Shown: piece after piece, positions 7,661 through 31,657 of the stretch
How positions within the stretch are numbered: position 1 is the first letter of the stretch
Layout: each line of letters opens with the position of its first letter
Assembly (NCBI GenBank): GCA_903877335.1
Contig: CAIRDJ010000059.1
Location: forward strand, 1-34,894
Direction: 5' to 3'
From: an uncultured Chloroflexota bacterium
GTDB taxonomy: Bacteria; Chloroflexota; Anaerolineae; Aggregatilineales; Phototrophicaceae
DNA: 34,894 nucleotides
Position numbers and translations under genes: made by a program
The notes under the pieces: model-generated
Told to the model about the DNA's origin: nothing
The model's database searches: none
What the model saw: the letters and a program-made list of their open reading frames with translations, nothing else

Positions 7661-7693
7661 TGTCATCCCACACTAGGGATGGATGGAGTCTTT

Positions 7694-8812: not shown

Positions 8813-8927
8813 TTTCCTTCGGATGGGTTGAATCTTGGTGAATAGGGAGAGTTGTCACAATCATTCATTGAAAAAAGCACCATTGCATTCTATTCTTTAA
8901 CACGGAAGCTACAAAAAATGGTTTAGG

Positions 8928-11549: not shown

Positions 11550-11552
11550 ACC

Positions 11553-14937: not shown

Positions 14938-16380
14938 TTAGTTGCCGCCCGTGTTCTGCTGTTGCTGTTGTTGTTCTCCCGCGCCAAAGCCGCCCATCGC
15001 CCCAAACCCTTGTTGCTGTTGAGCGCCTGCGCCAAAGCCACCCATCGCCCCAGATCCTTGTTGCTGTTGTTGTTCTCCTGCGCCAAAGCCACCCATCGAC
15101 CCAAATCCTTGTTGCTGTTGTTCGCCTGCGCCAAAGCCGCCCATCGACCCAAATCCTTGTTGCTGTTGTTCGCCTGCGCCAAAGCCGCCCATCGACCCAA
15201 ATCCTTGTTGCTGTTGAGCACCTGCGCCAAAGCCACCTGTCGCACCAAATCCTTGTTGCTGTTGTTGAGCACCTGCACCGTCTAGTGGGGTAAATGCAGA
15301 GGGCGCAATAGGCGTTGCTAAGGAGAACGGCGCACTGTTGTCCAATGGCGAAGCTGAAAAATTAGTGGACGTGTCAGACACCAAATCATCTGGCAAAGGC
15401 AAAATCAAGGGGTTTTCACTGGGCAACAACATCACGCGGACATTTGGTGAAATTTTGTCAATATAGTAGTAGGTGAGTACCTCTGGGGACTCTTGCAACG
15501 CCTTGCCGATTTCACGCGCAGCGTTGGCTTGCGCAAGGGCGCGGATTTCTGTTGCGGTTGCATCCCCTCGGGCTAGGCGAATCTCACGCTCTGCTTGAAA
15601 CAATGCCGCTTCTTGTTGTTCTTTCGCCACTTGTTTGGCTTCAACTGATGCTGCATATTCTACCGAGAAAGTAATATCACGAATGAGGAATTGATCCAGC
15701 TCGAATCCTTTAAGCGTAAGCTCTTCGCGCAGCAGTCGTTCAAGCGTGGCTTCAAGTTCGGCACGGGAGGAACTATTGACCTCATTCACGGTGAATTTTG
15801 AAACCTCTGTGCGCACAAAGCCCCGCACTAACGGACGGATCAAATCATCGATGTAGCGATCTTGCCAATCCACATGCACTTGTGTCACTTGATTCACATC
15901 AATGCGAAAGATGGTGGAGGTGCTAAGGCGCACTTCTTGCCCGTCTTTGGTACGCGCTCGAATTGAATCATCCCCAATATCTTCCGCTGAACCCTCTCCA
16001 TTTGACATGGTGTAGGTTTGGTAGTAGATCGGGTAGAGTTGCACTTGCTCTAAAAATGGAATAATCACATGTAAACCGGCGCGAAGGGGCTGTTGGCGGA
16101 TACCATCAGGGGATAAAGCCGAAATCACCACGGCAACCGCAGCGGGTTGAATGAAGTTGACCGCGTATCCCAGTACGACAATTCCAAGCGTGAAGGTGAA
16201 CGGGATCAACACTTGCGCAGAAATAAGCCGCAGGAACGCAAGTACAAGCCCTTGTCGTGTCAAGGTGAGCACGAACAAAACTACGATGTAGATCACAAAT
16301 CCAACGACGGCAACATTGGATAGGATAGTAAGGAGCGTATCTATGTTAAATGCAATGAACGCCGATGAACTTGGCATCAT
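14938..16380 (-). CDS. SPFH/band-7 (flotillin/HflK-like) membrane protein with a C-terminal Gly/Gln-rich tandem-repeat tail
   Basis: N-terminal TM helix, SPFH-type core, and coiled-coil Ala/Glu-rich segment 'AKQVAKEQQEAALFQAEREIRLARGDATATEIRALAQANAAREIGKAL'. The tail is 7 repeats of a 16-aa unit. Start is probably the ATG-ATG at 16380/16377 ('MMPSSSAF...'); the upstream in-frame ATG at 16434 would overlap the NfeD-like gene. Confidence 0.75.
   Translation of the reverse strand: MMPSSSAFIAFNIDTLLTILSNVAVVGFVIYIVVLFVLTLTRQGLVLAFLRLISAQVLIPFTFTLGIVVLGYAVNFIQPAAVAVVISALSPDGIRQQPLRAGLHVIIPFLEQVQLYPIYYQTYTMSNGEGSAEDIGDDSIRARTKDGQEVRLSTSTIFRIDVNQVTQVHVDWQDRYIDDLIRPLVRGFVRTEVSKFTVNEVNSSSRAELEATLERLLREELTLKGFELDQFLIRDITFSVEYAASVEAKQVAKEQQEAALFQAEREIRLARGDATATEIRALAQANAAREIGKALQESPEVLTYYYIDKISPNVRVMLLPSENPLILPLPDDLVSDTSTNFSASPLDNSAPFSLATPIAPSAFTPLDGAGAQQQQQGFGATGGFGAGAQQQQGFGSMGGFGAGEQQQQGFGSMGGFGAGEQQQQGFGSMGGFGAGEQQQQQGSGAMGGFGAGAQQQQGFGAMGGFGAGEQQQQQQNTGGN
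14959..15272. repeat. About 6.5 copies of a 48-bp tandem repeat within the 3' end of the SPFH gene, encoding (GFG[AS]MGGFGAG[AE]QQQQ)n
   Basis: Near-identical 48-bp units visible in the DNA (e.g. 15121-15168 and 15169-15216 are essentially identical). Overlapping ORFs in the other frames and strand are artefacts of the repeat. Confidence 0.85.
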
Positions 16381-16405
16381 AGGGTCAACCTCGCTGTGTT
16401 CTGTT

Positions 16406-16852
16406 TTATCCGATAGCTTGCAACACTGCTTCAAATGGCGTTTGTTGATCTATGACGACCGTCACAACCCCATGCAACAGATTTTCGACCGCATAGCGGT
16501 GTTGATTTGTGAATTCGGTTTTCAGAATAACTTCACCGTTCAAATCATTTATTTCTAAAATGGCACTAGGAACGGATTCTATATTGCCATTCTTGTCCAA
16601 ATATTGAAATAGTGCAACGTCGCCGGCTTGAAGTTTACTTTTGTCGGCAGGCACGAAAATAGCCACAGTGCTGCGACTGTCCACGACCTGAGAATCCACA
16701 GAGTAGATTTTGACCGCCAGCGGAAAGGTGAAAAAACCAACAATCCATGCCAAAACCACCACAAGCAACAGCGTCATGACAATCAGGAGAAACACACGGT
16801 TCGTGCGTTGAAGCTCGATCAGAGAATAGGGAAGGTTATTTGAATCATTCAT
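16406..16852 (-). CDS. NfeD-like small membrane protein (SPFH-operon partner)
   Basis: 148 aa. N-terminal TM helices 'LLIVMTLLLVVVLAWIVGFFTF' followed by a beta-rich soluble domain. Lies immediately upstream of, and co-directional with, the SPFH gene, which is the canonical NfeD-stomatin/flotillin arrangement. Call rests on context and architecture only. Confidence 0.5.
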   Translation of the reverse strand: MNDSNNLPYSLIELQRTNRVFLLIVMTLLLVVVLAWIVGFFTFPLAVKIYSVDSQVVDSRSTVAIFVPADKSKLQAGDVALFQYLDKNGNIESVPSAILEINDLNGEVILKTEFTNQHRYAVENLLHGVVTVVIDQQTPFEAVLQAIG

Positions 16853-19059: not shown

Positions 19060-20616
19060 TTAGGGTTGCTTCCAAAGCAGGTTTTGGAACACACCGATTA
19101 GGTCGGGAAACAGGTTCATCACTTCTTTGCGCTTTGCCATGTATGTGTCAACATGCAAGGGGATGATGAGGGCACCCTCCTCTGATAAAATACGCTGAAT
19201 TTCAGCATAGAGTGGTTTACGCTCTTCTGGATTTTCCGTTGCTCGAATCTGATCGATTAATGCGTCGAATTCGGGATTCGTCCATCCTGAAACATTTAAG
19301 AAAGCATCCGACTTGAACATCAAACTTAAATTTATTTCAGGCTCCCCAACATGAGTCCACCATTGTACCGCAAACGGAACTTGCCCCCACTGTTCGTAGA
19401 AATAGCTATTGGCAGGGACACGCTCAATTTCTACGCGAATGCCAGCGGGTAAAAGCGATTCCTGTAAAACGACGGCAGCATTCACCAAGCCAGGAAAAAG
19501 ATCTGCTACGGTGAGCGTGATGTCGAGTCCGTCAGGGTAGCCTGCCTCAGCTAGGAGTGCCTTTGCGCCTTCAATATCTTGCGCAGGGGCTTCAATGCCA
19601 TCCCAATAGGGATTTGCTGGGCTGATGGGGTGGTCGTTGCCCAAATATCCATCTCCCAAGGCAAATACCTGACGAATTGCTTCACGGTTGGTTGCCAGCT
19701 TGAGTGCTTTGCGCACGCGCACATCATCAAAGGGAGGTTCAAAGGTTAGCATTTCAAAGCCAAACCAAAAACCCATATCAGATTGCAGAATGTCTATATT
19801 GGGATTGGCTTGCAAAATGGGGATGCTGGTTGGGCTTACTTGATAAAGAATATCCACATCTCCGCTGGCTAAAGCCGCTACTTGACTGGTGGGGTCAGGG
19901 ATGATGCGATACTGCATGGTATCAAGATAGGGCAAAGGAGCGTTCCAGTAGGCTTCATTGCGGACATACGTTACGGATTCGTCTGGGATATTCTCTCCTA
20001 AAATGAAGGGTCCTGTTCCAATTGGGGTGGTGGCGAGTTCCTCATCAGACCGCCCATTCGGAATGATGGAAGCGGCGGGATCCCACATCGTTTCCAGCAA
20101 CGTATGGTGAGGTTGCGACAAACGAAACTCAACTGTGTGCTCATCTAGGGCGACTACTTCGTTGACAGACGTGAATAAACTCCCAATGATGCTCCCTAAA
20201 TTCACGTCCATCAGACGGTTATAGGTGTAAACCACATCAGCAGAAGTGAAGTCCTGTCCGTTGTGGAACTTGACACCCTTGCGAAGATTAAATGTCCATG
20301 TTAGTTCATCCTCGCTAATTGACCAAGATTCCGCCAGGCGCGGTATAATCGGGAAATGCGGTTGAGTGACATCAAGCGTGACGAGTGTGTCTCCCATCAG
20401 AATCCACCCAAGTGCATCCGCCAAAGTGAGCCATGTGGCGGGGTCAAAAGTCGTGACACCATCCACCATAGCGATGCGAATCTCCCCCCCAAAGATCGGC
20501 TCAAGGGTGGACTGGGCGCGGGTAACACGAGGGGATAAACGATCAAAGAACATCATTGCCGATGTTCCTGCCATCAATTGCACGAATCTGCGACGCGATA
20601 ATTCATGATTGACCAT
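19060..20616 (-). CDS. ABC transporter substrate-binding protein, family 5 (peptide/nickel/opine type), Tat-exported
   Basis: Twin-arginine signal 'SRRRFVQLMAGTSAMMF'. Length and composition typical of DppA/OppA/NikA-type SBPs. Divergent from the P-ATPase-DppBCDF operon. Confidence 0.8.
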   Translation of the reverse strand: MVNHELSRRRFVQLMAGTSAMMFFDRLSPRVTRAQSTLEPIFGGEIRIAMVDGVTTFDPATWLTLADALGWILMGDTLVTLDVTQPHFPIIPRLAESWSISEDELTWTFNLRKGVKFHNGQDFTSADVVYTYNRLMDVNLGSIIGSLFTSVNEVVALDEHTVEFRLSQPHHTLLETMWDPAASIIPNGRSDEELATTPIGTGPFILGENIPDESVTYVRNEAYWNAPLPYLDTMQYRIIPDPTSQVAALASGDVDILYQVSPTSIPILQANPNIDILQSDMGFWFGFEMLTFEPPFDDVRVRKALKLATNREAIRQVFALGDGYLGNDHPISPANPYWDGIEAPAQDIEGAKALLAEAGYPDGLDITLTVADLFPGLVNAAVVLQESLLPAGIRVEIERVPANSYFYEQWGQVPFAVQWWTHVGEPEINLSLMFKSDAFLNVSGWTNPEFDALIDQIRATENPEERKPLYAEIQRILSEEGALIIPLHVDTYMAKRKEVMNLFPDLIGVFQNLLWKQP

Positions 20617-20828
20617 AATAAAGTCCTCTACAGTAAATAGTCTGAATCAATTTTCACCATGATTTTAATACGGGCACGACAATAAAGCAAATTATCAAGA
20701 AACAGAACTTGTGCTTGGATCAAGTCTCTACTACAGATTATTTAGGAACCGTATACAATAACAGTAAAAATCAGTATATTATATGCGTCCAACTTCGTGT
20801 GTTTCACAATAGTTGAAAGGCTTCTCCA
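20617..20828. promoter_or_regulatory. AT-rich divergent intergenic region (212 bp) between the SBP gene (-) and the P-type ATPase gene (+); presumed bidirectional promoter/operator region
   Basis: Long non-coding AT-rich gap with several TA-rich hexamers (e.g. 'TACAAT', 'TATATT'). No confident -35/-10 pair could be assigned by eye. Confidence 0.3.
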
Positions 20829-22991
20829 ATGCCCATAATGTTGCCAGTTGTTTTTCTAGGCGGGGCGATCGCAGCTGGTGTAAGTTACCTGCAAGAAAAA
20901 GACCTCCCTGTTCCTTTCGTCAAACCGAGAACCAAGTTGATCGTCTATTTGGGGAATGAGTTGCGACCTGAAGCTGACCCAGAAGATCGCTTTGTTGAAC
21001 GGGTTAACCTGAGGTATCAGAAGTTTTTTCAAGAGCGTATTGATCCGCTATTGGGGGCAAGTCGTCAACATGACCTCGCTGAGCTTGCGCCGACAACACA
21101 ACTGCTGGAGCGTCCGGATGGGTACATTAACCGTCGGTTGGGATATTCGGTCATCGCAATATTTTTTGCGATTGCGGGTAGTCTTTCGCTTCCCTCTTTC
21201 TTGGTGGTGAGCGTGGCAGTCGGGTTATACGCTAACAACGACTTGTACTTTCAGGGGACGCGGAATTTACTGAAGGGTAAACCGGATCACTTGACCACGG
21301 CAATGCTGGCGATGGTGACATCTTGGATCGGTGGTTTTTGGATTGCGAACTCACTGGCTTCATTGTTGTATTACACGGGTGAGAAATTAGCTGCCGTCAG
21401 TGAAAATCGCGCTCGTCAGCGCATGATTGATGTATTCGGGCAGATTCCCCGCACTGCGCGAGTGATTTTGGAGGGCGAAGAAATTGAAATTTCTGTTTCT
21501 GCCTTAAAGGAGGGGGATGTTGTGATAGTCCGTGCCGGGCAAATCATCCCTGTTGACGGCGAAATCACTCAAGGGATGGCTTCTATCGATCAGCACATGT
21601 TGACTGGTGAATCTCAACCTGTTGAAAAAGAAGTGGGAGCTGGGGTTTTTGCCTCTACACTTTTGTTATCTGGCGAAATCCTCATCACCATCACCCGTAC
21701 AGGTACGGAAACAGTGGCATCTCAGATTGTTGAGGTGTTGAACAATACGGCTAACTTCCAGTTTGAAATGGTGAATCGCGGTAAGCGGATCGCCAATGCG
21801 TGGGCACTTCCAACCATTCTGATTGGTTTAGCGGGTGGGTTAGTTGGTGGGATTCGCTCATTGGTGGCGTTATGGAATGTCGATGTTGGCTCTCAAATCA
21901 TGATTACCGCCCCCATCAGCTTATTGAATTTCCTCGATAAAGCCTCTGCTAATGGTATATTGGTCAAGGATGGTCGCTCGCTTGAACTCTTAAAACTGGT
22001 GGATACGGTTGTATTCGACAAGACTGGTACGTTAACCGAGGAACGCCCAACCGTCGCAGCGGTACATTCATTCTCGGAGTTTAGTTCAGACGCCATCCTA
22101 CAAATTGCTGCCGCTGCTGAAAGCCACCAATCCCATCCGATTGCGCATGCCATCCTCCATGCTACAAAAGAACGAGGGTTGGAATTTCCTGCTGTGGAAA
22201 AAACAGATGTTGAGCTGGGTTACGGGTTGCGTGTGATGCTTGAAGGGCACGAAATTCTGGTGGGTAGCCAACGCTTCATGGCGATGAGTGATGTAGAATT
22301 GCCCATTGACCTGGAGGACTTGCTCACTCAAACAGCGGAGCTGGGGCATTCGATGGTGTTTGTTGCGGTGGACGCGCAATTGATAGGGGCGATTGAGTTG
22401 CAACCGACCGTCCGCCCAGAGGCATACACGGTAATTGCCAACCTACAGGAGCGGGGTATCAAAACCGTGATTATCTCTGGCGACCAAGAAGCACCCACGC
22501 GCAAGTTAGCCCACCAACTGGGGATTGATGAATATTTTGCCAACACCCTGCCGGAGAATAAAGCACAATTGGTGGAGATGCTGCAATCTCAAGGGCGAAA
22601 AGTATGCTTTGTGGGGGACGGCATCAATGACTCCATCGCATTGCGCAAAGCGGATGTATCGGTCTCCATTCATGGCGCAACGACTATAGCGGTGGACACC
22701 GCGCAAATTGTCTTAATGAGTAAGAACCTAGAGAAGTTGCCGTACCTATTTGAGTTGTCCCACACGTTCAACCGAAATGCCAGAGTTGGAACGTTGATTG
22801 CTACGGTGCCTGCCTTCATTCTGATTGGTGGGGTATTCATCTTAAATTTGGGAGTTTATGCTTCAATTGCATTTTGGAACATTGGCTTAGTAGCAGGAAT
22901 GTTGGTGGCGATGTCCCCTAGCCTCTCCAATACAGAACAGGATAAGCAACAGGCACTCCCACAAAATAGCCGTGTGGCGTTGGGTGAATAA
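20829..22991 (+). CDS. P-type ATPase, P1B-like, lacking the canonical CPC motif and an N-terminal metal-binding domain
   Basis: Phosphorylation motif 'DKTGTLT', hinge 'GDGINDSIAL', and P1B-type 'HP' motif ('SHQSHPIAHAI'). At the position of the TM6 CPC motif the sequence reads 'ITAPISLLNF'. No CxxC HMA domain. Confidence 0.8.
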   Translation: MPIMLPVVFLGGAIAAGVSYLQEKDLPVPFVKPRTKLIVYLGNELRPEADPEDRFVERVNLRYQKFFQERIDPLLGASRQHDLAELAPTTQLLERPDGYINRRLGYSVIAIFFAIAGSLSLPSFLVVSVAVGLYANNDLYFQGTRNLLKGKPDHLTTAMLAMVTSWIGGFWIANSLASLLYYTGEKLAAVSENRARQRMIDVFGQIPRTARVILEGEEIEISVSALKEGDVVIVRAGQIIPVDGEITQGMASIDQHMLTGESQPVEKEVGAGVFASTLLLSGEILITITRTGTETVASQIVEVLNNTANFQFEMVNRGKRIANAWALPTILIGLAGGLVGGIRSLVALWNVDVGSQIMITAPISLLNFLDKASANGILVKDGRSLELLKLVDTVVFDKTGTLTEERPTVAAVHSFSEFSSDAILQIAAAAESHQSHPIAHAILHATKERGLEFPAVEKTDVELGYGLRVMLEGHEILVGSQRFMAMSDVELPIDLEDLLTQTAELGHSMVFVAVDAQLIGAIELQPTVRPEAYTVIANLQERGIKTVIISGDQEAPTRKLAHQLGIDEYFANTLPENKAQLVEMLQSQGRKVCFVGDGINDSIALRKADVSVSIHGATTIAVDTAQIVLMSKNLEKLPYLFELSHTFNRNARVGTLIATVPAFILIGGVFILNLGVYASIAFWNIGLVAGMLVAMSPSLSNTEQDKQQALPQNSRVALGE

Positions 22992-23036: not shown

Positions 23037-23981
23037 ATGGTGATTTTTTTGCTAAGGCGCCTGGCATTCATGCTGGCAACCTTGTTGTTCATCTCTCTGC
23101 TCATCTTTGTGGTGACAGAGGTTTTGCCGGGAGATGTGGCTACCGCGATACTGGGTAGACGCGCCACAGTCGAGAATTTAGCGGCGTTACGAGAGCAACT
23201 GGGGTTGGAACGTCCTGCGACCACACGTTATGTTGATTGGTTAACCGGAATGTTGCGAGGAGACTGGGGAGACTCGCTCACCCTTAAAGTCCCCATTTAT
23301 CCACTTGTCACCGAACGACTGGGCAACTCGCTCATTTTGGCAACTCTTGCTTTCGTGATAGGGGTGCCACTGGGATTGTTCTTGGGGATTATCGCAGGGT
23401 TAATGCAGGATAGCTGGGTCGATCATCTCATTTCTGGAAGTTTACTGGCTTTGATTTCTATTCCAGAGTTCGTGTTGGCTACAACAGGAATTATGATCTT
23501 CGCCTATCAATTTCAGATTTTACCCGCCACCAGCACAATCGAAGCCAACATGAGTTGGCAAACCGTCTTGCTCGCCCTGATATTGCCCACCACGACACTG
23601 GTCTTGGGGATGTTGGCACATGTGGGGCGAATGATGCGCACGAGCATTGCCGAAGTAATGCACAGTCAATACATCCGCACCGCCACCCTAAAGGGGTTGA
23701 AGATGCGTGTTGTCGTTTTGCGGCATGCATTGCCCAATGCGCTTCTTCCAACCATCAGCGTGATTGCTTTGGAAGTGGGGTATCTTTTGGGGGGGATTGT
23801 GGTCATTGAGAATGTATTTGCTTATCCGGGGTTGGGGCGTTTGATGTTGCGCGGGGTGACAAACCAAGATTTGCCCCTCTTGCAAGCCGTTACCTTAATA
23901 ATGACTTTTGCGTTCATGCTCGCTAATTTTCTGGCAGATATGGTCTACATGATGTTGAATCCACGCATTCGCTATGAGTAA
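23037..23981 (+). CDS. ABC transporter permease, DppB/OppB/NikB family
   Basis: N-terminus 'MVIFLLRRLAFMLATLLFISLLIFVVTEVLPGD' is typical of DppB. 6 TM helices. EAA-like region. Confidence 0.85.
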   Translation: MVIFLLRRLAFMLATLLFISLLIFVVTEVLPGDVATAILGRRATVENLAALREQLGLERPATTRYVDWLTGMLRGDWGDSLTLKVPIYPLVTERLGNSLILATLAFVIGVPLGLFLGIIAGLMQDSWVDHLISGSLLALISIPEFVLATTGIMIFAYQFQILPATSTIEANMSWQTVLLALILPTTTLVLGMLAHVGRMMRTSIAEVMHSQYIRTATLKGLKMRVVVLRHALPNALLPTISVIALEVGYLLGGIVVIENVFAYPGLGRLMLRGVTNQDLPLLQAVTLIMTFAFMLANFLADMVYMMLNPRIRYE

Positions 23982-24912
23982 GGATAAACCGATGCAAGAA
24001 CCTACGCCAACTTTTGCGGTCAAGGGCGTATCCACACAACCGGACAACATCACTCAAAATCGCCCAACTCAACTGTCATTTCTGCTTCGACGAATGCTCA
24101 AGTTGCGTCAACATCCAGCAGGATTATTGGCGTTGGTGTTTATTGTGTTGTACCTCTTTTTGGCGATCTTTGGGGAACAAATCGCCCCGTATCCCTACAC
24201 GCAACAGCACTATACCGATACCCTGAAGCCACCTTCGATTACCTACTGGTTTGGTACAGATCAGTTCGGAAGAGATGTGCTCAGTCGGGTCATTGTTGGC
24301 TCGCGCGATGTGTTGCTATTGGCTTTCACTGCGATATCTTTTAGCGGGCTACTGGGTTTGTTCATTGGGCTCCTGGCGGGGTACTATGGCGGACTGCTGG
24401 ACGAACTGCTGATGCGCCTGATGGACATCATCATGTCGTTCCCCGCACTTTTGTTAGCGTTGTTGATCTTGAGTGTGTACGGCTCAAATTTCTTTAATTT
24501 AATTCTGACGTTAGGGATAGTCTTTGCGCCGTTCATTGCCCGCGTGGTACGCAGTGCTGTACTCGATGTGCGTTCGCTAGAGTACATTGATGCTGCCCGC
24601 TTGCGTGGGGAGGGGGATTTCTACATCATGACCCAAGAGATTTTGCCTAATATTATTCCGGTGGTCATTGTCGAGTTTTCGTTGAACTTCAGCTATACCA
24701 TCCTAGCAGGGGCATCACTGGGCTTTCTGGGGTTGGGTGTGCAACCCCCATCGCCTGATTGGGGCTTACAGGTGAATGAGGGGAGTCTGTACGCACTGAT
24801 CGCCCCGTGGGTGGTGATCTTCCCGTCAATTGCCATCTCCATTTTGGTGCTGTCAATTAACGTGTTTGCGGATATTTTGGGTCGCATTTTGGTAGGCGAG
24901 GGAGAGTCATGA
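23974..24912 (+). CDS. ABC transporter permease, DppC/OppC/NikC family
   Basis: Overlaps the upstream gene by 8 nt. Typical DppC topology. 'YIDAARLRGEGDFYIMTQEILPN' EAA region. Confidence 0.85.
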   Translation: MSKDKPMQEPTPTFAVKGVSTQPDNITQNRPTQLSFLLRRMLKLRQHPAGLLALVFIVLYLFLAIFGEQIAPYPYTQQHYTDTLKPPSITYWFGTDQFGRDVLSRVIVGSRDVLLLAFTAISFSGLLGLFIGLLAGYYGGLLDELLMRLMDIIMSFPALLLALLILSVYGSNFFNLILTLGIVFAPFIARVVRSAVLDVRSLEYIDAARLRGEGDFYIMTQEILPNIIPVVIVEFSLNFSYTILAGASLGFLGLGVQPPSPDWGLQVNEGSLYALIAPWVVIFPSIAISILVLSINVFADILGRILVGEGES

Positions 24913-26966
24913 CACCGACAACATCAAGTACCACCATTCCTGTTTTAGAGCTGGAAGATGTGCACATTGCCTATCAATCTGTGGGGAAATGGCATGACGT
25001 TGTTCACGGGGTATCGTTTGCCATACAACGTGGGCAAACGGTTGGGTTAGTGGGAGAATCCGGTTGTGGTAAAACTTCAACTGCCTATGCGGTGATGAAT
25101 TATCTCGGCAAGAACGGAAAGCAAAGCGGAGGGTCTATCCGTTTTAATGGGCGTGACATGCAGTCTTTTTCTCGCCAAGAGATACGCGATATTCGCGGCA
25201 AAAAGATGAGCATGGTCTATCAAAACCCTGCTTCGTCCCTCAATCCTGCCCTGCGAATTGGGCAACAAATGATCGAGGTTCTAGCTCGCCATGAGCATCT
25301 GTCTTCGCTGCAAGCCACCGAACGCGCCCTAGAGATGTTTCGTAAGGTGCGTTTACGTGACCCAAAAGCAATCATGCAACGCTATCCCTATCAGTTAAGT
25401 GGGGGGCAACAACAGCGTGTGGTGATCTCGATGGCGTTGGTAACAAACCCTGATCTGTTGATTATGGATGAGCCAACAACGGGTTTGGATGTCACCACAG
25501 AATCTGCCGTGTTGCGCTTGATAGCGGAACTCAAGCAAGAGTTTGATACCGCCATACTTTACATCAGTCATGATTTGCGTGTGGTGGCAAAAGTGTGTGA
25601 TTGGGTGGGAGTGATGTATGCTGGGCAGTTGGTTGAATGGGGGACAGCAGAGGCTGTTTTCAATCGCCCTCAAAATCCGTATACCGCCGACTTACTGGCT
25701 TGCACTCCTAGCTTGACGCAACATTATCAATCTAGCCGCTTGCGTACCATAGAAGGACGTGTCCCTGCACCCCATGCCCGTCAAGTGGGTTGTATCTATG
25801 CTTCGCGTTGCCGTTTCGCCCAGGCGGATTGTACCGAGACAACACCAATGATCCGCGAGTTATCATCTATGCCTTCTCATCAAGTGCGCTGTTGGCATTC
25901 CGAATCCATCCGAGAGCAACTTTCCCCAACTTTCCCCATCCAAGCCCCCCGCCCATCCGATAAAGCACTTTCTGCCGCGCCATCCAACGCAACTTTCTTA
26001 GAGGTTAAGGGGTTGAAGCAATACTATCGTGCCTCCTCCTCTATCGTGGATCGCGTGTTAGGTGGTGAGGCTCATTCGTTTAGGGCGGTGGATGATCTTT
26101 CGCTGGTTATTCAACAGGGGGAAGTGTTTGCAGTCGTCGGGGAAAGTGGGTCCGGAAAAACCACAACAGGGCGTGCAATCGTAGGCTTATTGAAACCAAC
26201 AGATGGCACCATCACTCTTCATGAAAAGTCGTTGTCCCCTCTTGTACAACACCGTTCTGCCAGGGAACGCCAAGCGATTCAAATGGTGTTCCAAAATCCT
26301 GAGTCCACCCTAAACCCTAACCACACCATCGGGCACATCTTGCATAGAACCTTGCTTCGTTTTGGTATCACTGGTCGGGGCGAGCGTCAGGAGAAAGTTG
26401 AACGCTTGTTGGAGTCTGTGCGGTTAGACCCAAGTTACGCTTATCGTTATCCAGGCCAGTTGAGCGGAGGCGAAAAACAGCGGGTGGCGATCGCACGTGC
26501 TTTCGCGGGTGATCCTCAGTTGGTTGTTTGTGATGAGGCGGTTTCGGCGTTGGATGTGTCAGTTCAAGCCACCATCTTGAATCTATTGATTGACTTAAAA
26601 GAGCAAACCCAGTGCTCTTACTTGTTCATCTCCCATGATCTCAGCGTTGTCCATTACATCTCTGACCACATTGCGGTGATGTATCACGGGCAAGTAATGG
26701 AAAGTGGCACAGTCGATCAAGTATTTGAAGCACCCCATCACCCGTATACCGCTATGCTGTTGAGTGCGATTGATTCTACCTATCATGCAGGTTCTTCCAC
26801 TGCGGATGCTTCACAAATGGAATCACAAGCCGACCAAGAGGGGTGTCCATTTCATGCTCGCTGCCCGCGCAAAATTAAAGACCTGTGTGAGCAAGTCGCT
26901 CCGCCCATTCAGTCCCCCACAGAGGGGCACCTCATCCGTTGCCATATCCCACTAAACGAACTGTAA
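24909..26966 (+). CDS. Fused tandem ATP-binding protein (DppD-DppF type) of the peptide/nickel ABC importer
   Basis: Two complete NBDs. The first has 'GESGCGKTS' / 'LSGGQQQRV' / 'LIMDEPTTGLD'; the second has 'GESGSGKTT' / 'LSGGEKQRV' / 'VVCDEAVSALD'. Each is followed by a Cys-containing oligopeptide-transporter C-terminal segment. The ATG overlaps the DppC stop (ATGA). Confidence 0.85.
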   Translation: MTPTTSSTTIPVLELEDVHIAYQSVGKWHDVVHGVSFAIQRGQTVGLVGESGCGKTSTAYAVMNYLGKNGKQSGGSIRFNGRDMQSFSRQEIRDIRGKKMSMVYQNPASSLNPALRIGQQMIEVLARHEHLSSLQATERALEMFRKVRLRDPKAIMQRYPYQLSGGQQQRVVISMALVTNPDLLIMDEPTTGLDVTTESAVLRLIAELKQEFDTAILYISHDLRVVAKVCDWVGVMYAGQLVEWGTAEAVFNRPQNPYTADLLACTPSLTQHYQSSRLRTIEGRVPAPHARQVGCIYASRCRFAQADCTETTPMIRELSSMPSHQVRCWHSESIREQLSPTFPIQAPRPSDKALSAAPSNATFLEVKGLKQYYRASSSIVDRVLGGEAHSFRAVDDLSLVIQQGEVFAVVGESGSGKTTTGRAIVGLLKPTDGTITLHEKSLSPLVQHRSARERQAIQMVFQNPESTLNPNHTIGHILHRTLLRFGITGRGERQEKVERLLESVRLDPSYAYRYPGQLSGGEKQRVAIARAFAGDPQLVVCDEAVSALDVSVQATILNLLIDLKEQTQCSYLFISHDLSVVHYISDHIAVMYHGQVMESGTVDQVFEAPHHPYTAMLLSAIDSTYHAGSSTADASQMESQADQEGCPFHARCPRKIKDLCEQVAPPIQSPTEGHLIRCHIPLNEL

Positions 26967-27031: not shown

Positions 27032-28201
27032 ATGAGTGGATTCGTAATCTTTAATATGAAGAGTATCTTGTATCAAATTCAACGTCGGACTGCCTTTGAT
27101 GAAGGGCATACCTTGTTCATGCGCGCTGAAGCAAGTATGAGTAATTTTGAACTGGATAGTGGGCAGATCGTAGAACCTGATATATTCTTGAAGGAGGGGG
27201 GATGGAGTTTATATGGGGCGCAAGATGGTCGCTTCATGTTGGTACAGTTGCCTCTGTCAGAGGATATCACACAAGTTCCTTTCATGACCCCTCACCAAAA
27301 CCAGCATGCCCAGCAATTATTAACTATTCCTTTTGAGGTTGCGCATACCCTCGTAGAGAACATTCCCGCACCTCAAAAGATCATCTTCATTCACATGATG
27401 GGGCGGACTGGCTCTACGCTGTTGAATAAGATTTTGAGCAATGTGGATGGGGTATGTAGTTTTTCTGAACCGGCTACCTTCCGCTTGGTGAGCAAATTGT
27501 GTGGGGGAGGGGTTGTTGACTCGGTGGGATGTCTCAACATTTTACGAACAGCGTTGCGGTTGCAATTCGGCGCACAGAATTATCAAGGCGACTTTCACAC
27601 GCTGGGGATTAAGTTGCGACATCGTGCAATGGATGATCTATCAATTTACCATTCGGCTTTTCCCACTGCTAAATACATTTTCATGTATCGTGAAGCGGTT
27701 GGTTGGATGCGCTCCTTTTATCGGTTGCTGATGGCATTTGGTGTGGGTAGGGACTTGGAGATAGCTGATGGTGCGCTTCCAGCAGATGCACGCCCCACAC
27801 AACAACTCCAAATCATCTGGAAACAAATCAGTGATAAACCGACCGATTACTTCAGTACGCATCCCGATTACGGCTATCTCGAGGAACTCTTGGCGGTGGT
27901 GTGGTCAAACTTGATGAACCAATACCTGCGGGGTGTGGAGCAGGGAATCCCATTATTAGCTGTGAATTTCAAAGATTTTACGCAAGATCGGCACGCAACC
28001 TTACAAGAGATTTTTTCGTTCGTCGGGCTAGACGCACAGCAAATTGACAGAGTGATGCAAGTCTATGAGGCAGACTCACAAGCTGGCACGGAAGTGGGAA
28101 GAGAGGGCTACAAGCACCCTATAACTGATGCCCAAGTCAAAAGATTCCTTGCTTACTTGAGCCTTCAACAGGGTTGCAATATGCCGGACTACACCTTATA
28201 G
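27032..28201 (+). CDS. Sulfotransferase-family-like protein, paralog A (tentative)
   Basis: P-loop-like 5'-PSB-type motif 'MMGRTGSTLLNKIL' (compare sulfotransferase 'RSGSTLL') and a downstream 'MYREAVGWMRSF' segment resembling the 3'-PB region. Start chosen at 27032 ('MSGFVIFNMKSILYQIQRR') by parallel with paralog B ('MNGFGFPNMMSILYQIQRR'); the upstream extension overlapping the ABC ATPase gene is rejected. Confidence 0.45.
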   Translation: MSGFVIFNMKSILYQIQRRTAFDEGHTLFMRAEASMSNFELDSGQIVEPDIFLKEGGWSLYGAQDGRFMLVQLPLSEDITQVPFMTPHQNQHAQQLLTIPFEVAHTLVENIPAPQKIIFIHMMGRTGSTLLNKILSNVDGVCSFSEPATFRLVSKLCGGGVVDSVGCLNILRTALRLQFGAQNYQGDFHTLGIKLRHRAMDDLSIYHSAFPTAKYIFMYREAVGWMRSFYRLLMAFGVGRDLEIADGALPADARPTQQLQIIWKQISDKPTDYFSTHPDYGYLEELLAVVWSNLMNQYLRGVEQGIPLLAVNFKDFTQDRHATLQEIFSFVGLDAQQIDRVMQVYEADSQAGTEVGREGYKHPITDAQVKRFLAYLSLQQGCNMPDYTL

Positions 28202-28401: not shown

Positions 28402-29604
28402 ATGAATGGATTCGGATTTCCTAACATGATGAGCATCTTGTATCAAATTCAACGTCGGATTGCGTTCGATGAAGGGCAACCCCAGTTTATGCGCTCTGAT
28501 GCGAGTTTAGATAAGTTTGAACTGGATGGCGGACAGATAGTAGAACCTGACATTTTCCTGAAGCAGGGTGGATGGAGTCTGTATGGAGTACAAGATGGTT
28601 GCTTCATGTTTGTTCAGTTGCCCCTGTCGGAGGATATCACGCAAGTTCCCTTCATCACGCTTCATCAAAACCAGCATGCCCAGCAATTATTAACTATTCC
28701 TTTTGAAGTTGCACAACACTTGGCAGAGAACATTCCCGCGCCTGAAAAGATCATCTTGATTTATATGATGGGGCGGACGGGTTCCACGCTGTTGAATAAG
28801 ATTTTGAGCAATGTGGATGGGGTGTGCAGTTTTTCTGAACCGGCTACCTTCCGCTTTGTGAGTAAATTATGTGGAAGGTTGTCTGTTGACTCGCACGAGT
28901 GTATCCATCTTCTACAGACGGCGTTGCGGTTGCAATTCGGCGCACAGAATTATCGTGGCAACTTTCACACGCTAGGGATTAAGTTGCGACCTCGTGCAAT
29001 GGATGATCTTTCGGTTTACCATTTAGCATTTCCATCCGCTAAGTACCTTTTCATGTATCGTGAGGCGGTTGGTTGGATGCGCTCCTTCTATCGGTTGCTG
29101 ATTGCAAACGGTGTGGGCAAGGACTTGGAGATGACTGATACGGTGCTGCCAGCGGATGCGCACCCCACGCAACGTCTTCAATTTATCTGGAGACGCATAG
29201 GGGATAAGCCAACCGATTACTTCAGCACGCATCCCGATTTCGGCTATCTTGAGGAACTCTTGGCGGTGGTGTGGTCAAACTTGATGAACCAATACCTGCG
29301 GGGTGTGGAGCAAGGAATCCCATTTTTAGCTGTGAATTTCAAAGATATTACACAAAATCGGTACGCGACCTTACAAGAGATTTTCTCGTTCGTCGGGTTA
29401 GACATAGAGCAAATTGACAGAGTGATGCAAGTTTATGAAGCAGACTCACAGTCTGGCACGGATGTAGGCAGAGAGGGCTACAAGCACCCTATCACTGATG
29501 CCCAAGTCGAAAGATTCCTTGCTTACTTGAGCCTTCAAAAGGGTTGCAATATTCCCGACTACAATTTGTCCCATATCGGTGAAAGAGGGGATGACCCATC
29601 ATGA
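28402..29604 (+). CDS. Sulfotransferase-family-like protein, paralog B (tentative)
   Basis: About 80% identical to paralog A along its length, including 'MMGRTGSTLLNKIL'. 'AGGA' SD upstream of the ATG at 28402. The upstream flank ('ACAATCA...') is also duplicated. Confidence 0.45.
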   Translation: MNGFGFPNMMSILYQIQRRIAFDEGQPQFMRSDASLDKFELDGGQIVEPDIFLKQGGWSLYGVQDGCFMFVQLPLSEDITQVPFITLHQNQHAQQLLTIPFEVAQHLAENIPAPEKIILIYMMGRTGSTLLNKILSNVDGVCSFSEPATFRFVSKLCGRLSVDSHECIHLLQTALRLQFGAQNYRGNFHTLGIKLRPRAMDDLSVYHLAFPSAKYLFMYREAVGWMRSFYRLLIANGVGKDLEMTDTVLPADAHPTQRLQFIWRRIGDKPTDYFSTHPDFGYLEELLAVVWSNLMNQYLRGVEQGIPFLAVNFKDITQNRYATLQEIFSFVGLDIEQIDRVMQVYEADSQSGTDVGREGYKHPITDAQVERFLAYLSLQKGCNIPDYNLSHIGERGDDPS

Positions 29605-30961: not shown

Positions 30962-31657
30962 TTATGTGTTGATTACATCCTCAAGCACCTGGTCGAACGC
31001 TTTGCGATCGGTTCTAGCTGCCTTGCGAATAGAAGCGTCAATGTATTCACGGCGCTCCTTTTCAGTGCCGAGCAGGATTTCAGGGGTGGGAGGCTCGATT
31101 AGTTTGAGGTCAGCTAGCTTATTAAGCAGTTGCATCCCAACTTGGTCGTTTTCCTTGCGAGCGAGGCTGTTCAACGTATCCATGTAGGTTCGGAACTGGT
31201 TGAGTTCCGGTTGAACCTGTGTCGCCTTCCAGCAGGCTTTACAGTACATCACCACAACAGCTTTCACGGGCGATTCCAACTCCGGATTCTGGGATAAGTC
31301 ATGGTCGTTCAACCAGCGCAACTCAATATTGAGGTCATTACAGAAGAGTGCCAGTTGATAGGCTAGGGCGCGGCTTCCTTCGGGCGACAAAGATAGTAAC
31401 CATAATTGTAACTCTGGCTCATCATTTAGCCCCACTTTTACCCACTCTACAAAATCTTGTCCTAGCATTTCTGTCGTTTTGGAGTTTAAACCCGACTCTG
31501 TAATGGAACGCACATTATCAAGCACCTGGTCTGTCACGGTGCTAATTTGATCTCGAACAGCGTTAAGGCGCGGGGCCACTCGTTCGCTTAACTGAATCTG
31601 TCTTTCTGCGTAAACAGCTGCGACGATCATCAGAATCAAGATAATTAAAAATGGCAT
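30962..31657 (-). CDS. Hypothetical membrane-anchored protein
   Basis: 231-aa ORF with N-terminal TM helix 'MPFLIILILMIVAAVYA'. Rest is predicted soluble and helical. No motif recognised. Confidence 0.4.
   Translation of the reverse strand: MPFLIILILMIVAAVYAERQIQLSERVAPRLNAVRDQISTVTDQVLDNVRSITESGLNSKTTEMLGQDFVEWVKVGLNDEPELQLWLLSLSPEGSRALAYQLALFCNDLNIELRWLNDHDLSQNPELESPVKAVVVMYCKACWKATQVQPELNQFRTYMDTLNSLARKENDQVGMQLLNKLADLKLIEPPTPEILLGTEKERREYIDASIRKAARTDRKAFDQVLEDVINT

What the first reader, a model, noticed from the sequence alone, without database searches (positions are those of the whole stretch)
20829..22991. P1B-like P-type ATPase with 'APISL' in place of the transmembrane CPC metal-binding motif and no N-terminal HMA domain
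DKTGT, GDGIND and the P1B-type HP motif are present, so the fold and catalytic cycle look intact. At the TM6 position, where heavy-metal pumps carry CPC/CPH/SPC, this protein has Ala-Pro-Ile, and there is no cytoplasmic CxxC domain. It is the first gene of an operon continuing into DppB-DppC-DppDF, downstream of a divergent Tat-exported family-5 SBP. The substrate is therefore unlikely to be a classical soft metal, and the pairing of a P-type pump with a Dpp/Nik-type importer in one operon is odd.
Basis: partly seen in the sequence, partly recalled or inferred. Interest (0 to 1): 0.55.

Follow-up and report, generated by a model that had tools for sequence, protein, structure and literature searches.

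The report
Cysteine-free P1B-like pump beside peptide importer
This gene encodes an intact ATP-driven membrane pump from a large, unstudied branch of the heavy-metal pump family that has lost every metal-holding residue in the membrane and sits next to peptide-type binding proteins and natural-product genes in many bacteria, so it probably moves something other than a classical heavy metal.

Summary
The 720-aa ORF (20829-22991, +) is real. TGES, DKTGT, HP and GDGIND are intact, there is no HMA domain, and the protein has one Cys, outside the membrane. 'AP' (361-362) aligns with the second, downstream proline of CPCALGLATP. The true CPC equivalent is V353-G354-S355, and G354 is near-invariant in the family. 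The conclusion that there is no thiolate site therefore holds, and more strongly: the hallmark M4 proline is gone too.

The protein passes only the generic P1B model. It fails the copper, cadmium, CopA, ZntA and KdpB models. It belongs to a large uncharacterised Cys-free clade found in Chloroflexota, Myxococcota, Entotheonellaceae, Acidobacteriota and Gammaproteobacteria. A rough tree places this clade beside a cyanobacterial Cys-free group and P1B-6 (SCA type).

The pairing with a Dpp/Nik-type system recurs. SBP_bac_5 is the commonest immediate neighbour in 84 non-redundant family loci and is absent from 72 control P1B loci. Other members sit in NRPS/PKS clusters with kinases, sulfotransferases, secreted phosphatases or sulfatases.

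Best reading: a working pump for a non-thiophilic, probably organic substrate. The substrate is unknown. This is a new variant of a known kind.

The parts
20829..22991 (+). 720-aa P-type ATPase of the Cys-free P1B-like clade
   Evidence: ORF. Pfam E1-E2_ATPase and Hydrolase. TIGR01525 412.5 bits against a cut-off of 346. AlphaFold pLDDT 75.6, best Foldseek matches CopA and ZntA.
20835..20891 (+). N-terminal Gly/Ala-rich hydrophobic helix (residues 3-21), in addition to the eight-helix P1B core
   Evidence: Kyte-Doolittle score 2.0. Helix 4-23 in the model, at low confidence. Fifteen of 40 relatives score above 1.6 on the same measure, and most of those segments start at residues 1-4.
21603..21614 (+). 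TGES dephosphorylation motif (259-262)
   Evidence: T259, G260 and E261 are invariant in 40 relatives.
21885..21893 (+). V353-G354-S355, the true equivalent of the CPC metal-binding tripeptide in M4
   Evidence: Alignments. G354 occurs in 46 of 48 family members. The model breaks the helix at 350-352.
21909..21923 (+).
   Evidence: P362 occurs in 45 of 48 family members and in 45 of 45 CPC-type pumps.
22017..22031 (+). DKTGT, with the phosphorylated Asp at D397
   Evidence: invariant in the family.
22134..22139 (+). HP dipeptide of the P1B-type nucleotide-binding domain
   Evidence: H436 and P437 are invariant.
22614..22631 (+). GDGIND hinge motif
   Evidence: invariant.
19060..20616 (-). Divergent family-5 solute-binding protein with a twin-arginine signal; the conserved partner of this ATPase subclade
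   Evidence: PF00496, E = 3e-91. 37-42% identical to the SBP5 genes beside the ATPases in L091, L093 and L192. A terminator-like hairpin at 19048-19015 follows its stop codon.
20617..20828 (.). Divergent intergenic region with a conserved promoter-like block (about 20747-20782) and a ribosome-binding site (GAAAGG) for the ATPase
   Evidence: Promoter-like site at 20752-20780. The block and the ribosome-binding site are conserved in L081 and L084. No Rfam match.
23037..23981 (+). DppB/NikB-type permease
   Evidence: Pfam BPD_transp_1 and BPD_transp_1_N. Best NCBIfam hit is the Opp2B nickel permease at 256 bits, below its cut-off.
23974..24912 (+). DppC/NikC-type permease
   Evidence: Pfam OppC_N and BPD_transp_1. 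Best NCBIfam hit is the Opp1C nickel/cobalt permease at 241 bits, below its cut-off.
24909..26966 (+). Fused DppD-DppF double ABC ATPase
   Evidence: Two ABC_tran and two oligo_HPY stretches. PRK11308 551 bits.
27032..28201 (+). Sulfotransferase-like protein, copy 1; the start is probably M32 of the listed ORF
   Evidence: PF13469. 82% identical to copy 2, with the alignment starting at residue 32. Kept after the importer genes in L081 and L084.
28402..29604 (+). Sulfotransferase-like protein, copy 2
   Evidence: PF13469 and PF00685.

Best explanation
The gene encodes a catalytically competent P-type ATPase. It belongs to a large, uncharacterised lineage that branched from the heavy-metal (P1B) pumps near the P1B-6 'SCA' group. 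This lineage has lost the membrane cysteine, the hallmark M4 proline (now an invariant glycine) and the M5/M6 ligands. It still runs the normal cycle of phosphorylation at D397 and dephosphorylation through TGES.

The membrane site no longer suits a thiophilic metal. In this lineage the site varies strongly between subclades: K/R, E+R, D-D or uncharged. I therefore infer that these pumps move non-thiophilic, probably organic solutes, and that the solute differs between subclades.

In this window the pump is transcribed from its own conserved promoter, apparently together with a Nik/Opp/Dpp-type ABC importer and two sulfotransferases, opposite a Tat-exported family-5 binding protein. The most likely arrangement is an export-and-recapture module. 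The pump exports a small peptide-like or conjugated metabolite, or a chelator. The binding protein and ABC importer take that compound, or a derivative of it, back up.

Shown: the sequence anatomy, clade membership and recurrent gene neighbourhoods. Inferred: the direction of transport, the nature of the substrate and the coupling to the importer.
For: - Catalytic motifs are present and invariant across 40 relatives. The fold matches CopA and ZntA.
- CPC aligns with V-G-S, and all aligned CopA-type ligands are replaced.
- Apart from structural Gly and Pro, the only invariant residues in or at the ends of the membrane helices are N101, K186 and N367. The M4 core varies between subclades: FGYNMK, FSEVIR, LDDxLY, PKNKxM, YVAVMK, MFMSIL, VGSQIM.
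- Only the generic P1B model is passed.
- SBP_bac_5 is the top Pfam family among 101 immediate neighbours of 84 non-redundant loci (6 hits). Next come Thioesterase (5), Amino_oxidase (4), and AMP-binding, PP-binding and ABC_tran (3 each), with PPDK_N, APH, Sulfotransfer_3 and Lactamase_B at 2 each.
- SBP5 lies within 6 kb of the ATPase in 10 of 135 family loci, directly adjacent in nine of them, in four different orientations. It is absent from 72 control P1B loci covering 992 kb.
- Other family ATPases lie beside Dpp-type ABC parts: L149 has ATPase-decarboxylase-SBP5-DppB, and L100 has a fused DppDF directly upstream of the ATPase.
- SBP5 and ATPase identities diverge in parallel across window, L091, L093 and L192.
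- In four NRPS or NRPS/PKS loci the ATPase is the only transporter gene seen within 8 kb on either side, next to a PPDK_N-type kinase and a metallophosphatase/5'-nucleotidase-type protein.
- Sulfotransferases follow the importer here, and a sulfatase lies beside the SBP5 in L098.
Against: - No member has been tested, and no substrate is identified.
- A P1B-type eight-helix core has only been shown to carry metal ions. Nothing here shows a cavity large enough for an organic molecule.
- The query clade differs from the family consensus. It keeps D352, the conserved Asp of the P1B-6 M4, and has N350, S355, Q356, N673 and N684. These could form an oxygen-rich cation site.
- The best, though sub-threshold, NCBIfam hits of the binding protein and permeases are nickel/cobalt-type.
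- The window also holds two ABC exporters that could export any product.
- Most of the 135 family loci show none of the recurrent neighbours. Many of the fetched stretches are short.
- The tree is a neighbour-joining tree without support values.
Confidence: 0.4

Rival explanations
1. It is still a metal pump, but for a hard or borderline divalent cation (Fe2+, Mn2+, Ni2+, Co2+, Mg2+ or Ca2+) bound by oxygen ligands. It either balances uptake by the neighbouring Nik-type importer or supplies metal to exported metalloproteins.
For: - The nearest recognisable group in the tree is P1B-6, which the literature links to Fe(II) (PMC7558416).
- The query keeps D352, which aligns with the conserved Asp of the P1B-6 M4 'VD(Y/F)SCA'. 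Its M6 W-N-I-G aligns with the P1B-6 'HNx(S/T)'. N350, S355, Q356, N673 and N684 are polar.
- The binding protein and both permeases score best, though below the curated cut-offs, against nickel/cobalt-type models.
- Many extracytoplasmic neighbours across the family belong to families known to use metal cofactors (my own knowledge): metallophosphatase/5'-nucleotidase, metallo-beta-lactamase fold, sulfatase and FGE-like proteins.
Against: - No polar membrane residue is conserved across the family, whereas metal pump subgroups keep their ligands invariant.
- D352 is specific to the query clade and absent from its nearest relatives (P0007, L091, L093).
- Most members carry Lys or Arg in the M4 core.
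- No metal-sensing riboswitch lies upstream.
- No metalloregulator gene was seen among the genes annotated in the window.
Confidence: 0.27
2. The pump works directly with the family-5 binding protein as a binding-protein-dependent P-type transporter, either for import or with the binding protein as the extracytoplasmic acceptor of the exported solute. The ABC permease genes in this lineage would be a secondary addition.
For: ATPase and SBP5 lie next to each other with no ABC permease within 5-8 kb in L091, L093, L098 and the P0067 contig. In L192 the gap between the two genes is 15 nt, but that contig is only 3.4 kb. The SBP5 and ATPase sequences diverge in parallel in the query subclade. No SBP5 occurs at 72 control P1B loci.
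Against: No P-type ATPase is known to use a solute-binding protein. Here, in L149 and in L100, canonical permease or ATPase genes that would serve the binding protein are present. Orphan binding-protein genes are common. Adjacency alone does not show physical coupling.
Confidence: 0.12
3. The membrane site is degenerate and the protein no longer transports anything. It acts as an ATP-driven regulator or scaffold, or energises a partner membrane protein as KdpB does for KdpA.
For: All canonical ligands and the M4 proline are lost. The M4 core is hypervariable. Recurrent membrane-associated neighbours include Band_7/SPFH proteins, a second family ATPase in tandem in 9 loci, and a small membrane-anchored unknown protein. 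KdpB is the next-best structural match.
Against: G354, P362, N367, G668, G675 and P697 in or at the ends of the membrane helices are strongly conserved, which argues for a constrained, working membrane domain. No single partner is conserved across the family. All P-type ATPases characterised so far are reported to be strictly coupled pumps (PMC10654040).
Confidence: 0.1

Closest known systems
P1B-6 ATPases ('SCA' motif group)
   Same: Nearest recognisable group in the neighbour-joining tree. Neither has a proline at the central CPC position. The downstream M4 proline and the spacing to DKTGT are the same. In most family members the basic residue four positions before that proline (SCALK versus GxN(I/M)(K/R)) is shared. 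The query keeps the Asp that precedes the motif (V-D-Y-S-C versus V-D-V-G-S).
   Different: The Cys is replaced (S355 here; variable elsewhere in the family). The M5 Asn is lost. The M6 His-Asn-x-Ser/Thr is W-N-I-G here. In the query the basic residue is Met (M358). The genomic context is SBP5 and biosynthetic genes.
CopA / ZntA / CadA (P1B-1, P1B-2; PDB 3RFU/4BBJ, 7R0G, 4UMV/4UMW, 7QBZ)
   Same: Best sequence and structure matches (E = 9e-65; Foldseek E = 3e-42). Same catalytic motifs and HP dipeptide. The model shows the eight-helix core.
   Different: 21-28% identity. No HMA domain. CPC becomes V-G-S, the M5 YN becomes I-L, and the M6 M...SS becomes F...GL. There is an extra N-terminal hydrophobic helix. 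The subfamily HMMs fall below their cut-offs.
Cyanobacterial Cys-free P1B-like group (loci L009, L012, L019 and others, e.g. Thermosynechococcus, Crocosphaera)
   Same: Sister group in the tree. M4 also lacks Cys and the central Pro, with the motif (L/V)D(L/F)xTGIRVxxP.
   Different: Only 32-35% identical. It keeps the M5 Asn and the M6 N-G-(S/T) that the query family has largely lost. I found no functional description for this group either.
KdpB (P1A)
   Same: Related fold (Foldseek E about 1e-30).
   Different: TIGR01497 scores 152 bits against a cut-off of 528. No Kdp-related family appears among the genes annotated in the window. The alignment and tree place the query among P1B pumps.
P4 lipid flippases (M4 'PISL' motif; from my own knowledge)
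   Same: The query has the literal string P-I-S-L (362-365) in M4.
   Different: The register is wrong: P362 is 35 residues before the phosphorylated Asp, not at the canonical M4 proline position (43 residues in P1B pumps). The family consensus is P-I-A-M. The core has eight helices and no flippase features. I treat the resemblance as coincidence.
Phosphorylated-protoxin systems (calyculin CalQ kinase / CalL periplasmic phosphatase; streptomycin and viomycin), PMC8637855
   Same: In the NRPS/PKS-linked subclade the ATPase lies between or beside a PPDK_N-type kinase and a metallophosphatase/5'-nucleotidase-type protein. The one whose sequence was read, from L089, has an N-terminal hydrophobic segment suggestive of export. 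This is the gene logic of modify inside, export, reactivate outside.
   Different: No P-type ATPase is described in those systems. The window itself has sulfotransferases and an importer rather than a kinase and a phosphatase. No phosphorylated product is known for these clusters.
Nik / Cnt (staphylopine) / Opp / Dpp / Gsi ABC importers
   Same: The neighbouring genes have this architecture: SBP5, two permeases and a fused double ATPase as in GsiA. Cnt-type systems pair such an importer with a dedicated exporter of the ligand (my own knowledge).
   Different: Every specific model scores below its curated cut-off, so the ligand is not assignable. Known systems use MFS or EamA exporters, not a P-type ATPase.

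Membership tests
P-type ATPase superfamily | DKTGT phosphorylation motif, TGES, GDGxND, and the HAD-like P domain | tested here: met
   all present, and invariant in 40 relatives.
P1B (heavy-metal) ATPases | Score above the curated cut-off of the generic family model TIGR01525 | tested here: met
   412.5 bits against 346.25.
P1B (heavy-metal) ATPases | HP dipeptide in the nucleotide-binding domain | tested here: met
   H436-P437, invariant in the family.
P1B (heavy-metal) ATPases | Eight-helix core (MA, MB, M1-M6) | tested here: met
   The AlphaFold model has helices 97-119, 123-148, 154-168, 171-203, 296-340, 342-374, 636-671 and 676-700. Best Foldseek matches are CopA and ZntA. An extra N-terminal helix (4-23) is predicted at low confidence.
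P1B (heavy-metal) ATPases | Cys-containing tripeptide in M4 (CPC, CPH, SPC, PCP, SCA or CSC; PMC13460109) | tested here: not met
   The aligned tripeptide is V353-G354-S355. The only Cys in the protein is C593.
P1B (heavy-metal) ATPases | N-terminal metal-binding domain (HMA with CxxC, or His-rich); common but not obligatory | tested here: not met
   No HMA hit. No CxxC in the N-terminal region of 40 family members.
P1B-1 / P1B-2 subfamilies (CopA, ZntA, CadA) | Subfamily HMMs above their cut-offs | tested here: not met
   TIGR01511 292.7 against 397; TIGR01512 305.5 against 313.5; CopA NF007952 264 against 1316; ZntA NF033775 227 against 1240.
P1B-6 | SCA in M4 and N-x18-H-N-x-(S/T) across M5/M6 (PMC13460109) | tested here: not met
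   The aligned residues are G-S-Q in M4, L665 in M5 and W683-N684-I-G686 in M6. Only the Asn of 'HN' and the preceding Asp (D352) are kept.
KdpB (P1A) | TIGR01497 above its cut-off | tested here: not met
   152 bits against 527.9.
Cys-free 'xGx' P1B-like clade (defined here) | Gly at the CPC-proline position, a downstream (T/S)(A/G)P(I/L)x(M/L)LN(F/Y)L motif, KDGRSLE before DKTGT, and monophyly in the tree | tested here: met
   G354, P362, L366, N367, L369 and K380-R383 are invariant or near-invariant. The clade is monophyletic in neighbour-joining trees. A DNA pattern built on this motif returned 120 metagenome stretches, 118 of which encode a relative.
Opp/Dpp/Nik-type ABC importer (neighbouring genes) | SBP_bac_5, two BPD_transp_1 permeases, and ABC_tran with oligo_HPY | tested here: met
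   No ligand-specific NCBIfam model reaches its cut-off for the binding protein or the permeases.

The most novel reading that the evidence does not exclude
These Cys-free, proline-less P1B-like pumps are the first P1-type ATPases with an organic substrate. One possibility is that they export phosphorylated or sulfated natural-product intermediates or peptide-like metabolites. Another is that they work physically with a family-5 solute-binding protein as a binding-protein-coupled P-type transporter. Their variable M4 core would then be a specificity code for different metabolites.
Probability: 0.3. Interest if true: 0.85.

Novelty: new variant of a known kind. Interest (0 to 1): 0.62.

Why it matters
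All seven recognised subgroups of P1B pumps are defined by a cysteine-containing M4 motif, and the M4 proline is treated as a hallmark of the canonical binding site of P-type ATPases (PMC13460109, PMC10654040). This clade is large and phylogenetically broad, keeps the full catalytic machinery, and has neither feature. It is annotated everywhere as 'heavy metal translocating' or 'Cu2+-exporting', and those labels are probably wrong.

Members appear as unassigned ORFs in published natural-product clusters, for example orf16 and orf23 of the miuraenamide cluster (PMC10051162). In the NRPS or NRPS/PKS loci examined here, the ATPase is the only transporter gene seen within 8 kb on either side. Knowing what these pumps carry would bear on export and self-protection in natural-product producers. 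It might also add a new substrate class to the P1 pumps. Cultured hosts and a heterologous expression system make this testable.

Tried and rejected
1. KdpB or another characterised subfamily: rejected on HMM scores.
2. APISL as the CPC equivalent: rejected on two alignments, on spacing, and on the helix break in the model.
3. A relationship to P4 flippases through the literal 'PISL' string: rejected. The register is wrong and the family consensus is PIAM.
4. A riboswitch or other known RNA upstream that might name the ligand: none in the whole window at gathering thresholds, and nothing credible in 20560-20900 at E <= 10.
5. The genome-contig scan from the family alignment was swamped by generic DKTGT/GDGIND patterns. 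Only 8 of its 80 loci were family members. The other 72 were reused as controls.
6. A universal conserved neighbour: none exists. The commonest cluster, SBP5, is in 10 of 135 loci.
7. Literature: no description of this clade was found in the held library. Chan et al. 2010, the source of the TCDB 'FUPA' families, is not held. I therefore could not check whether the clade corresponds to one of those uncharacterised families.
8. Pfam at E <= 0.01 gives nothing for the recurrent small membrane-anchored neighbour (30962-31657) or its homologues.
Full report
**The object**

The ORF at 20829-22991 (+) encodes 720 aa. It contains TGES (259-262), DKTGT (397-401), HP (436-437), SGD (550-552) and GDGIND (596-601), and a single cysteine, C593. 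Pfam finds only E1-E2_ATPase and HAD/Hydrolase domains, with no HMA.

NCBIfam places it above the cut-off of the generic heavy-metal P-type model TIGR01525 (412.5 against 346.25). It falls below every specific model: Cd-type 305.5 against 313.5, Cu-type 292.7 against 397, CopA, ZntA, and KdpB 152 against 528. It is therefore not KdpB and not a member of a characterised subfamily.

An AlphaFold model built on 40 relatives (pLDDT 75.6) shows the P1B eight-helix core plus a low-confidence extra N-terminal helix. Its best PDB matches are CopA, ZntA, ATP7B and CadA, followed by KdpB.

**The motif**

Three lines of evidence show this is eight residues too far towards the C-terminus.

- The phmmer alignment to Legionella CopA is ungapped from M4 to DKTGT. 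It puts CPCALGLATP over V353-G-S-Q-I-M-I-T-A-P362.
- A MAFFT alignment of 48 family members with 72 other P1B pumps gives the same register for the CPC, CPH and SCA types.
- P362 lies 35 residues before D397, which is the spacing of the second proline. G354 lies 43 residues before D397, which is the spacing of the CPC proline. The model also breaks the M4 helix at 350-352, next to G354.

The CPC equivalent is therefore V-G-S. In the family this position is (F/I/V)-G-x, with Gly in 46 of 48 members. The residues aligned with the other CopA ligands are also replaced: the M5 Y-N becomes I-L, and the M6 M...S-S becomes F...G-L. All seven recognised P1B subgroups carry a Cys in this tripeptide (PMC13460109). 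The M4 prolines are regarded as the origin of the canonical binding site (PMC10654040). The coordinates of the motif were wrong.

**The family**

A protein search returned more than 100 full-length relatives at 42-49% identity, besides close relatives at 79-86%. Their sources include Caldilineaceae and other Chloroflexota, Chondromyces crocatus, Paraliomyxa miuraensis, Kofleriaceae, Entotheonellaceae and Pseudonocardiales. Genome loci add Acidimicrobiia, Acidobacteriia, Blastocatellia, Pirellulales, Thioploca, Thiotrichaceae and Sedimenticolaceae. The window itself comes from an Anaerolineae/Phototrophicaceae-like organism. [quoted passage not shown]

The catalytic residues are invariant. Family-specific invariant or near-invariant positions are N101, G169, K186, P328, G354, P362, L366, N367, L369, K380-D-G-R383, G668, G675 and P697. 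No family member has a CxxC in its N-terminal region. Many begin with a Gly/Ala-rich hydrophobic segment.

Neighbour-joining trees, which are rough and carry no support values, make the clade monophyletic. Its sister is a cyanobacterial Cys-free group with the M4 motif (L/V)D(L/F)xTGIRVxxP. Both sit next to the P1B-6 'SCA' group.

The M4 core is strikingly variable between subclades: FGYNM(K/R), FSEVIR, LDDxLY, PKNKxM, YVAVMK, MFMSIL, IGLNIK. The query clade reads N350-V-D352-V-G-S-Q-I-M358. It lacks the Lys/Arg that most members share with P1B-6. It keeps D352, which aligns with the conserved Asp of the P1B-6 'VD(Y/F)SCA'.

**Context in the window**

A family-5 solute-binding protein gene lies divergently upstream (19060-20616, -). 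It has a twin-arginine signal, and a strong terminator-like hairpin follows it. The 212-nt intergenic region contains a promoter-like block and a ribosome-binding site that are conserved in relatives with 80-86% identical ATPases. It contains no known riboswitch.

Downstream of the ATPase there is a 45-nt gap without a terminator-like site. Overlapping DppB-like, DppC-like and fused DppD/F-like genes follow. After them come two sulfotransferase-like paralogues that are 82% identical and a TAXI/NMT1-like binding protein. This order is kept in the close relatives.

Further upstream lie an ABC exporter (699 aa), a Band_7 protein, two pentapeptide-repeat proteins (one fused to a PstS-like domain), another ABC exporter (873 aa), a secreted Pro/Thr-rich protein, a PLP-dependent decarboxylase and an esterase.

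**Context across the family**

A scan of public metagenome contigs with a family-specific M4 pattern returned 120 stretches, 118 of which encode a relative of the ATPase. After removal of near-duplicates at 75% identity, 84 loci remained. I scanned their 101 immediate neighbours against Pfam. The counts were:

| Pfam family | Immediate neighbours (of 101) |
|---|---|
| SBP_bac_5 | 6 |
| Thioesterase | 5 |
| Amino_oxidase | 4 |
| AMP-binding | 3 |
| PP-binding | 3 |
| ABC_tran | 3 |
| PPDK_N | 2 |
| APH | 2 |
| Sulfotransfer_3 | 2 |
| Lactamase_B | 2 |
| Condensation | 2 |
| E1-E2_ATPase | 2 |

De novo clustering of neighbours within 6 kb gave the following. Except for SBP5, the kinase and the phosphatase, the names are my reading of the representative sequences or BLAST matches to Pfam-annotated proteins.

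| Neighbour cluster | Loci (of 135) |
|---|---|
| SBP5 | 10 |
| Second family ATPase in tandem | 9 |
| PPDK_N kinase | 6 |
| Amine oxidase | 6 |
| Amidinotransferase-like | 6 |
| Metallophosphatase / 5'-nucleotidase | 5 |
| Sulfotransferase-like | 5 |
| FGE-sulfatase-like | 5 |
| PLP-dependent decarboxylase | 4 |
| Metallo-beta-lactamase fold | 4 |

None of 72 control loci carrying other P1B pumps (992 kb in total) has an SBP5 homologue.

The SBP5 occurs in four orientations relative to the ATPase:

- divergent, in the window lineage;
- co-directional upstream, in L091 and L093, where an APH-type kinase follows the ATPase;
- co-directional downstream, in L192 (15-nt gap) and on the P0067 contig (103-nt gap);
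- convergent, in L098, L212 and L213, with a sulfatase behind the SBP5 in L098.

In L091, L093, L098 and the P0067 contig, no ABC permease lies within 5-8 kb. In L149 the order is ATPase, decarboxylase, SBP5, DppB. In L100 a fused DppDF lies directly upstream of the ATPase.

In the query subclade, SBP5 identities (37-42%) track the ATPase identities (42-52%), as expected for a pair inherited together.

A separate subclade sits inside NRPS or NRPS/PKS clusters, next to a PPDK_N-type kinase and a metallophosphatase/5'-nucleotidase-type protein. It includes:

- a Chondromyces crocatus locus whose Pfam content (NRPS, tryptophan halogenase, aromatic ammonia-lyase family) resembles, from my own memory, the chondramide cluster;
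- a Paraliomyxa miuraensis protein of 728 aa, most probably orf23 of the miuraenamide cluster. That cluster also lists a second P-type ATPase (orf16), a metallophosphatase/5'-nucleotidase (orf19) and a PEP/pyruvate-binding protein (orf22), all without assigned roles (PMC10051162);
- an Entotheonellaceae locus;
- a protein deposited as 'ORF2' of a Discodermia dissoluta symbiont, in the same 90% cluster as a 'transport ATPase' from 'uncultured bacterium psy1'.

**Interpretation**

The catalytic machinery is under strong constraint, so this is a working ATPase. The membrane domain is also constrained, but in structural residues (Gly, Pro), not in any coordinating set. The M4 core changes charge from subclade to subclade. 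That pattern is the opposite of the one seen in metal pumps, whose subgroups are defined by conserved ligand motifs.

The family's neighbours are dominated by four kinds of gene. These are specialised-metabolite enzymes, enzymes that add an anionic group (kinases, sulfotransferases), hydrolases that could remove such a group (phosphatases, sulfatases) and peptide/opine-type binding proteins. Taken together, I favour a pump for non-thiophilic, probably organic solutes (confidence 0.4). In this window it would act as the export half of an export-and-recapture module with the SBP5/ABC importer.

Three rivals remain.

- **An oxygen-ligand divalent-metal pump (0.27).** This is a serious rival for this particular clade. 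The clade has D352 and several polar M4-M6 residues, and its importer components score best, though below threshold, against nickel/cobalt models.
- **Direct coupling of the pump to the binding protein (0.12).** This would be unprecedented. It rests only on repeated adjacency without permease genes.
- **A non-transporting role (0.1).**

No experiment exists for any member, and I found no description of the clade in the held literature. I could not consult TCDB or Chan et al. 2010, so a correspondence with one of their 'functionally uncharacterized' type-I families cannot be excluded.

**Verdict**

The finding is a new variant of a known kind, a Cys-free and proline-less relative of the P1B pumps that recurrently lies beside family-5 binding proteins and natural-product genes. 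Interest 0.62.

Noticed in passing
window 30962-31657 (-): A 231-aa protein with an N-terminal hydrophobic helix and no Pfam match. Homologues recur beside family ATPases elsewhere: three tandem copies directly upstream of the ATPase in L090, and further copies in L088, L092 and L189, besides the syntenic L081 and L084.
   Followed up: partly
window 8928-13826 (+): An 873-aa ABC exporter is followed directly by a 757-aa pentapeptide-repeat protein with a C-terminal PstS/PBP-like domain. L090 has the same two gene types next to each other (an 885-aa ABC exporter and a 768-aa pentapeptide-PBP_like_2 protein) about 3.7 kb upstream of a family ATPase. L088 has a 579-aa pentapeptide-PBP_like_2 protein near its ATPase.
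   Followed up: partly
window 14938-16434 (-), repeat at 14962-15265: The Band_7/SPFH gene ends in a 48-nt tandem repeat (6.3 copies), as does its L084 homologue, where the repeat encodes a Gly/Gln-rich tail. Band_7 genes also lie near family ATPases in L006, L088, L092, L202 and L214.
   Followed up: partly
window 27032-28201 and 28402-29604 (+): Two tandem sulfotransferase-like paralogues, 82% identical, with no NCBIfam match. The close relatives L081 and L084 have a single copy at this place, so the duplication is recent.
   Followed up: partly
window 7679-8812 (+): A 377-aa ORF with a signal-peptide-like N-terminus and a long Pro/Thr/Ser-rich C-terminal half, with no Pfam or NCBIfam hit. 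It coincides with the strongest negative GC skew in the window (-0.227 at 8001-9000).
   Followed up: no
loci L004, L007, L116, L120, L135, L154, L163, L168, L194: Nine family loci carry a second ATPase gene of the same Cys-free family within about 3 kb of the first, most of them on the same strand. This raises the possibility of paired or heteromeric pumps. The miuraenamide cluster also lists two P-type ATPases (orf16 and orf23).
   Followed up: no
loci L009, L010, L012, L014, L019: A second group of P1B-like ATPases without any M4 cysteine, mostly from cyanobacteria (Thermosynechococcus, Baaleninema, Crocosphaera). The M4 motif is (L/V)D(L/F)xTGIRVxxP and M6 has N-G-(S/T). I found no description of this group.
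   Followed up: partly
protein cluster of P0001: Several database members of the 90% cluster of the query are fragments of 181-371 aa from long contigs. Two NCBI records among them, from one 107-kb contig, are flagged 'UNVERIFIED_CONTAM'. The gene is therefore split by frameshifts or assembly errors in some assemblies.
   Followed up: no
locus L098 5403-9658 (-): In one lineage the SBP5 beside the ATPase is preceded on the same strand by an 823-aa sulfatase gene. FGE-sulfatase-like and sulfotransferase-like genes recur in other family loci. This sulfate-ester theme parallels the kinase/phosphatase theme of the NRPS-linked subclade.
   Followed up: partly
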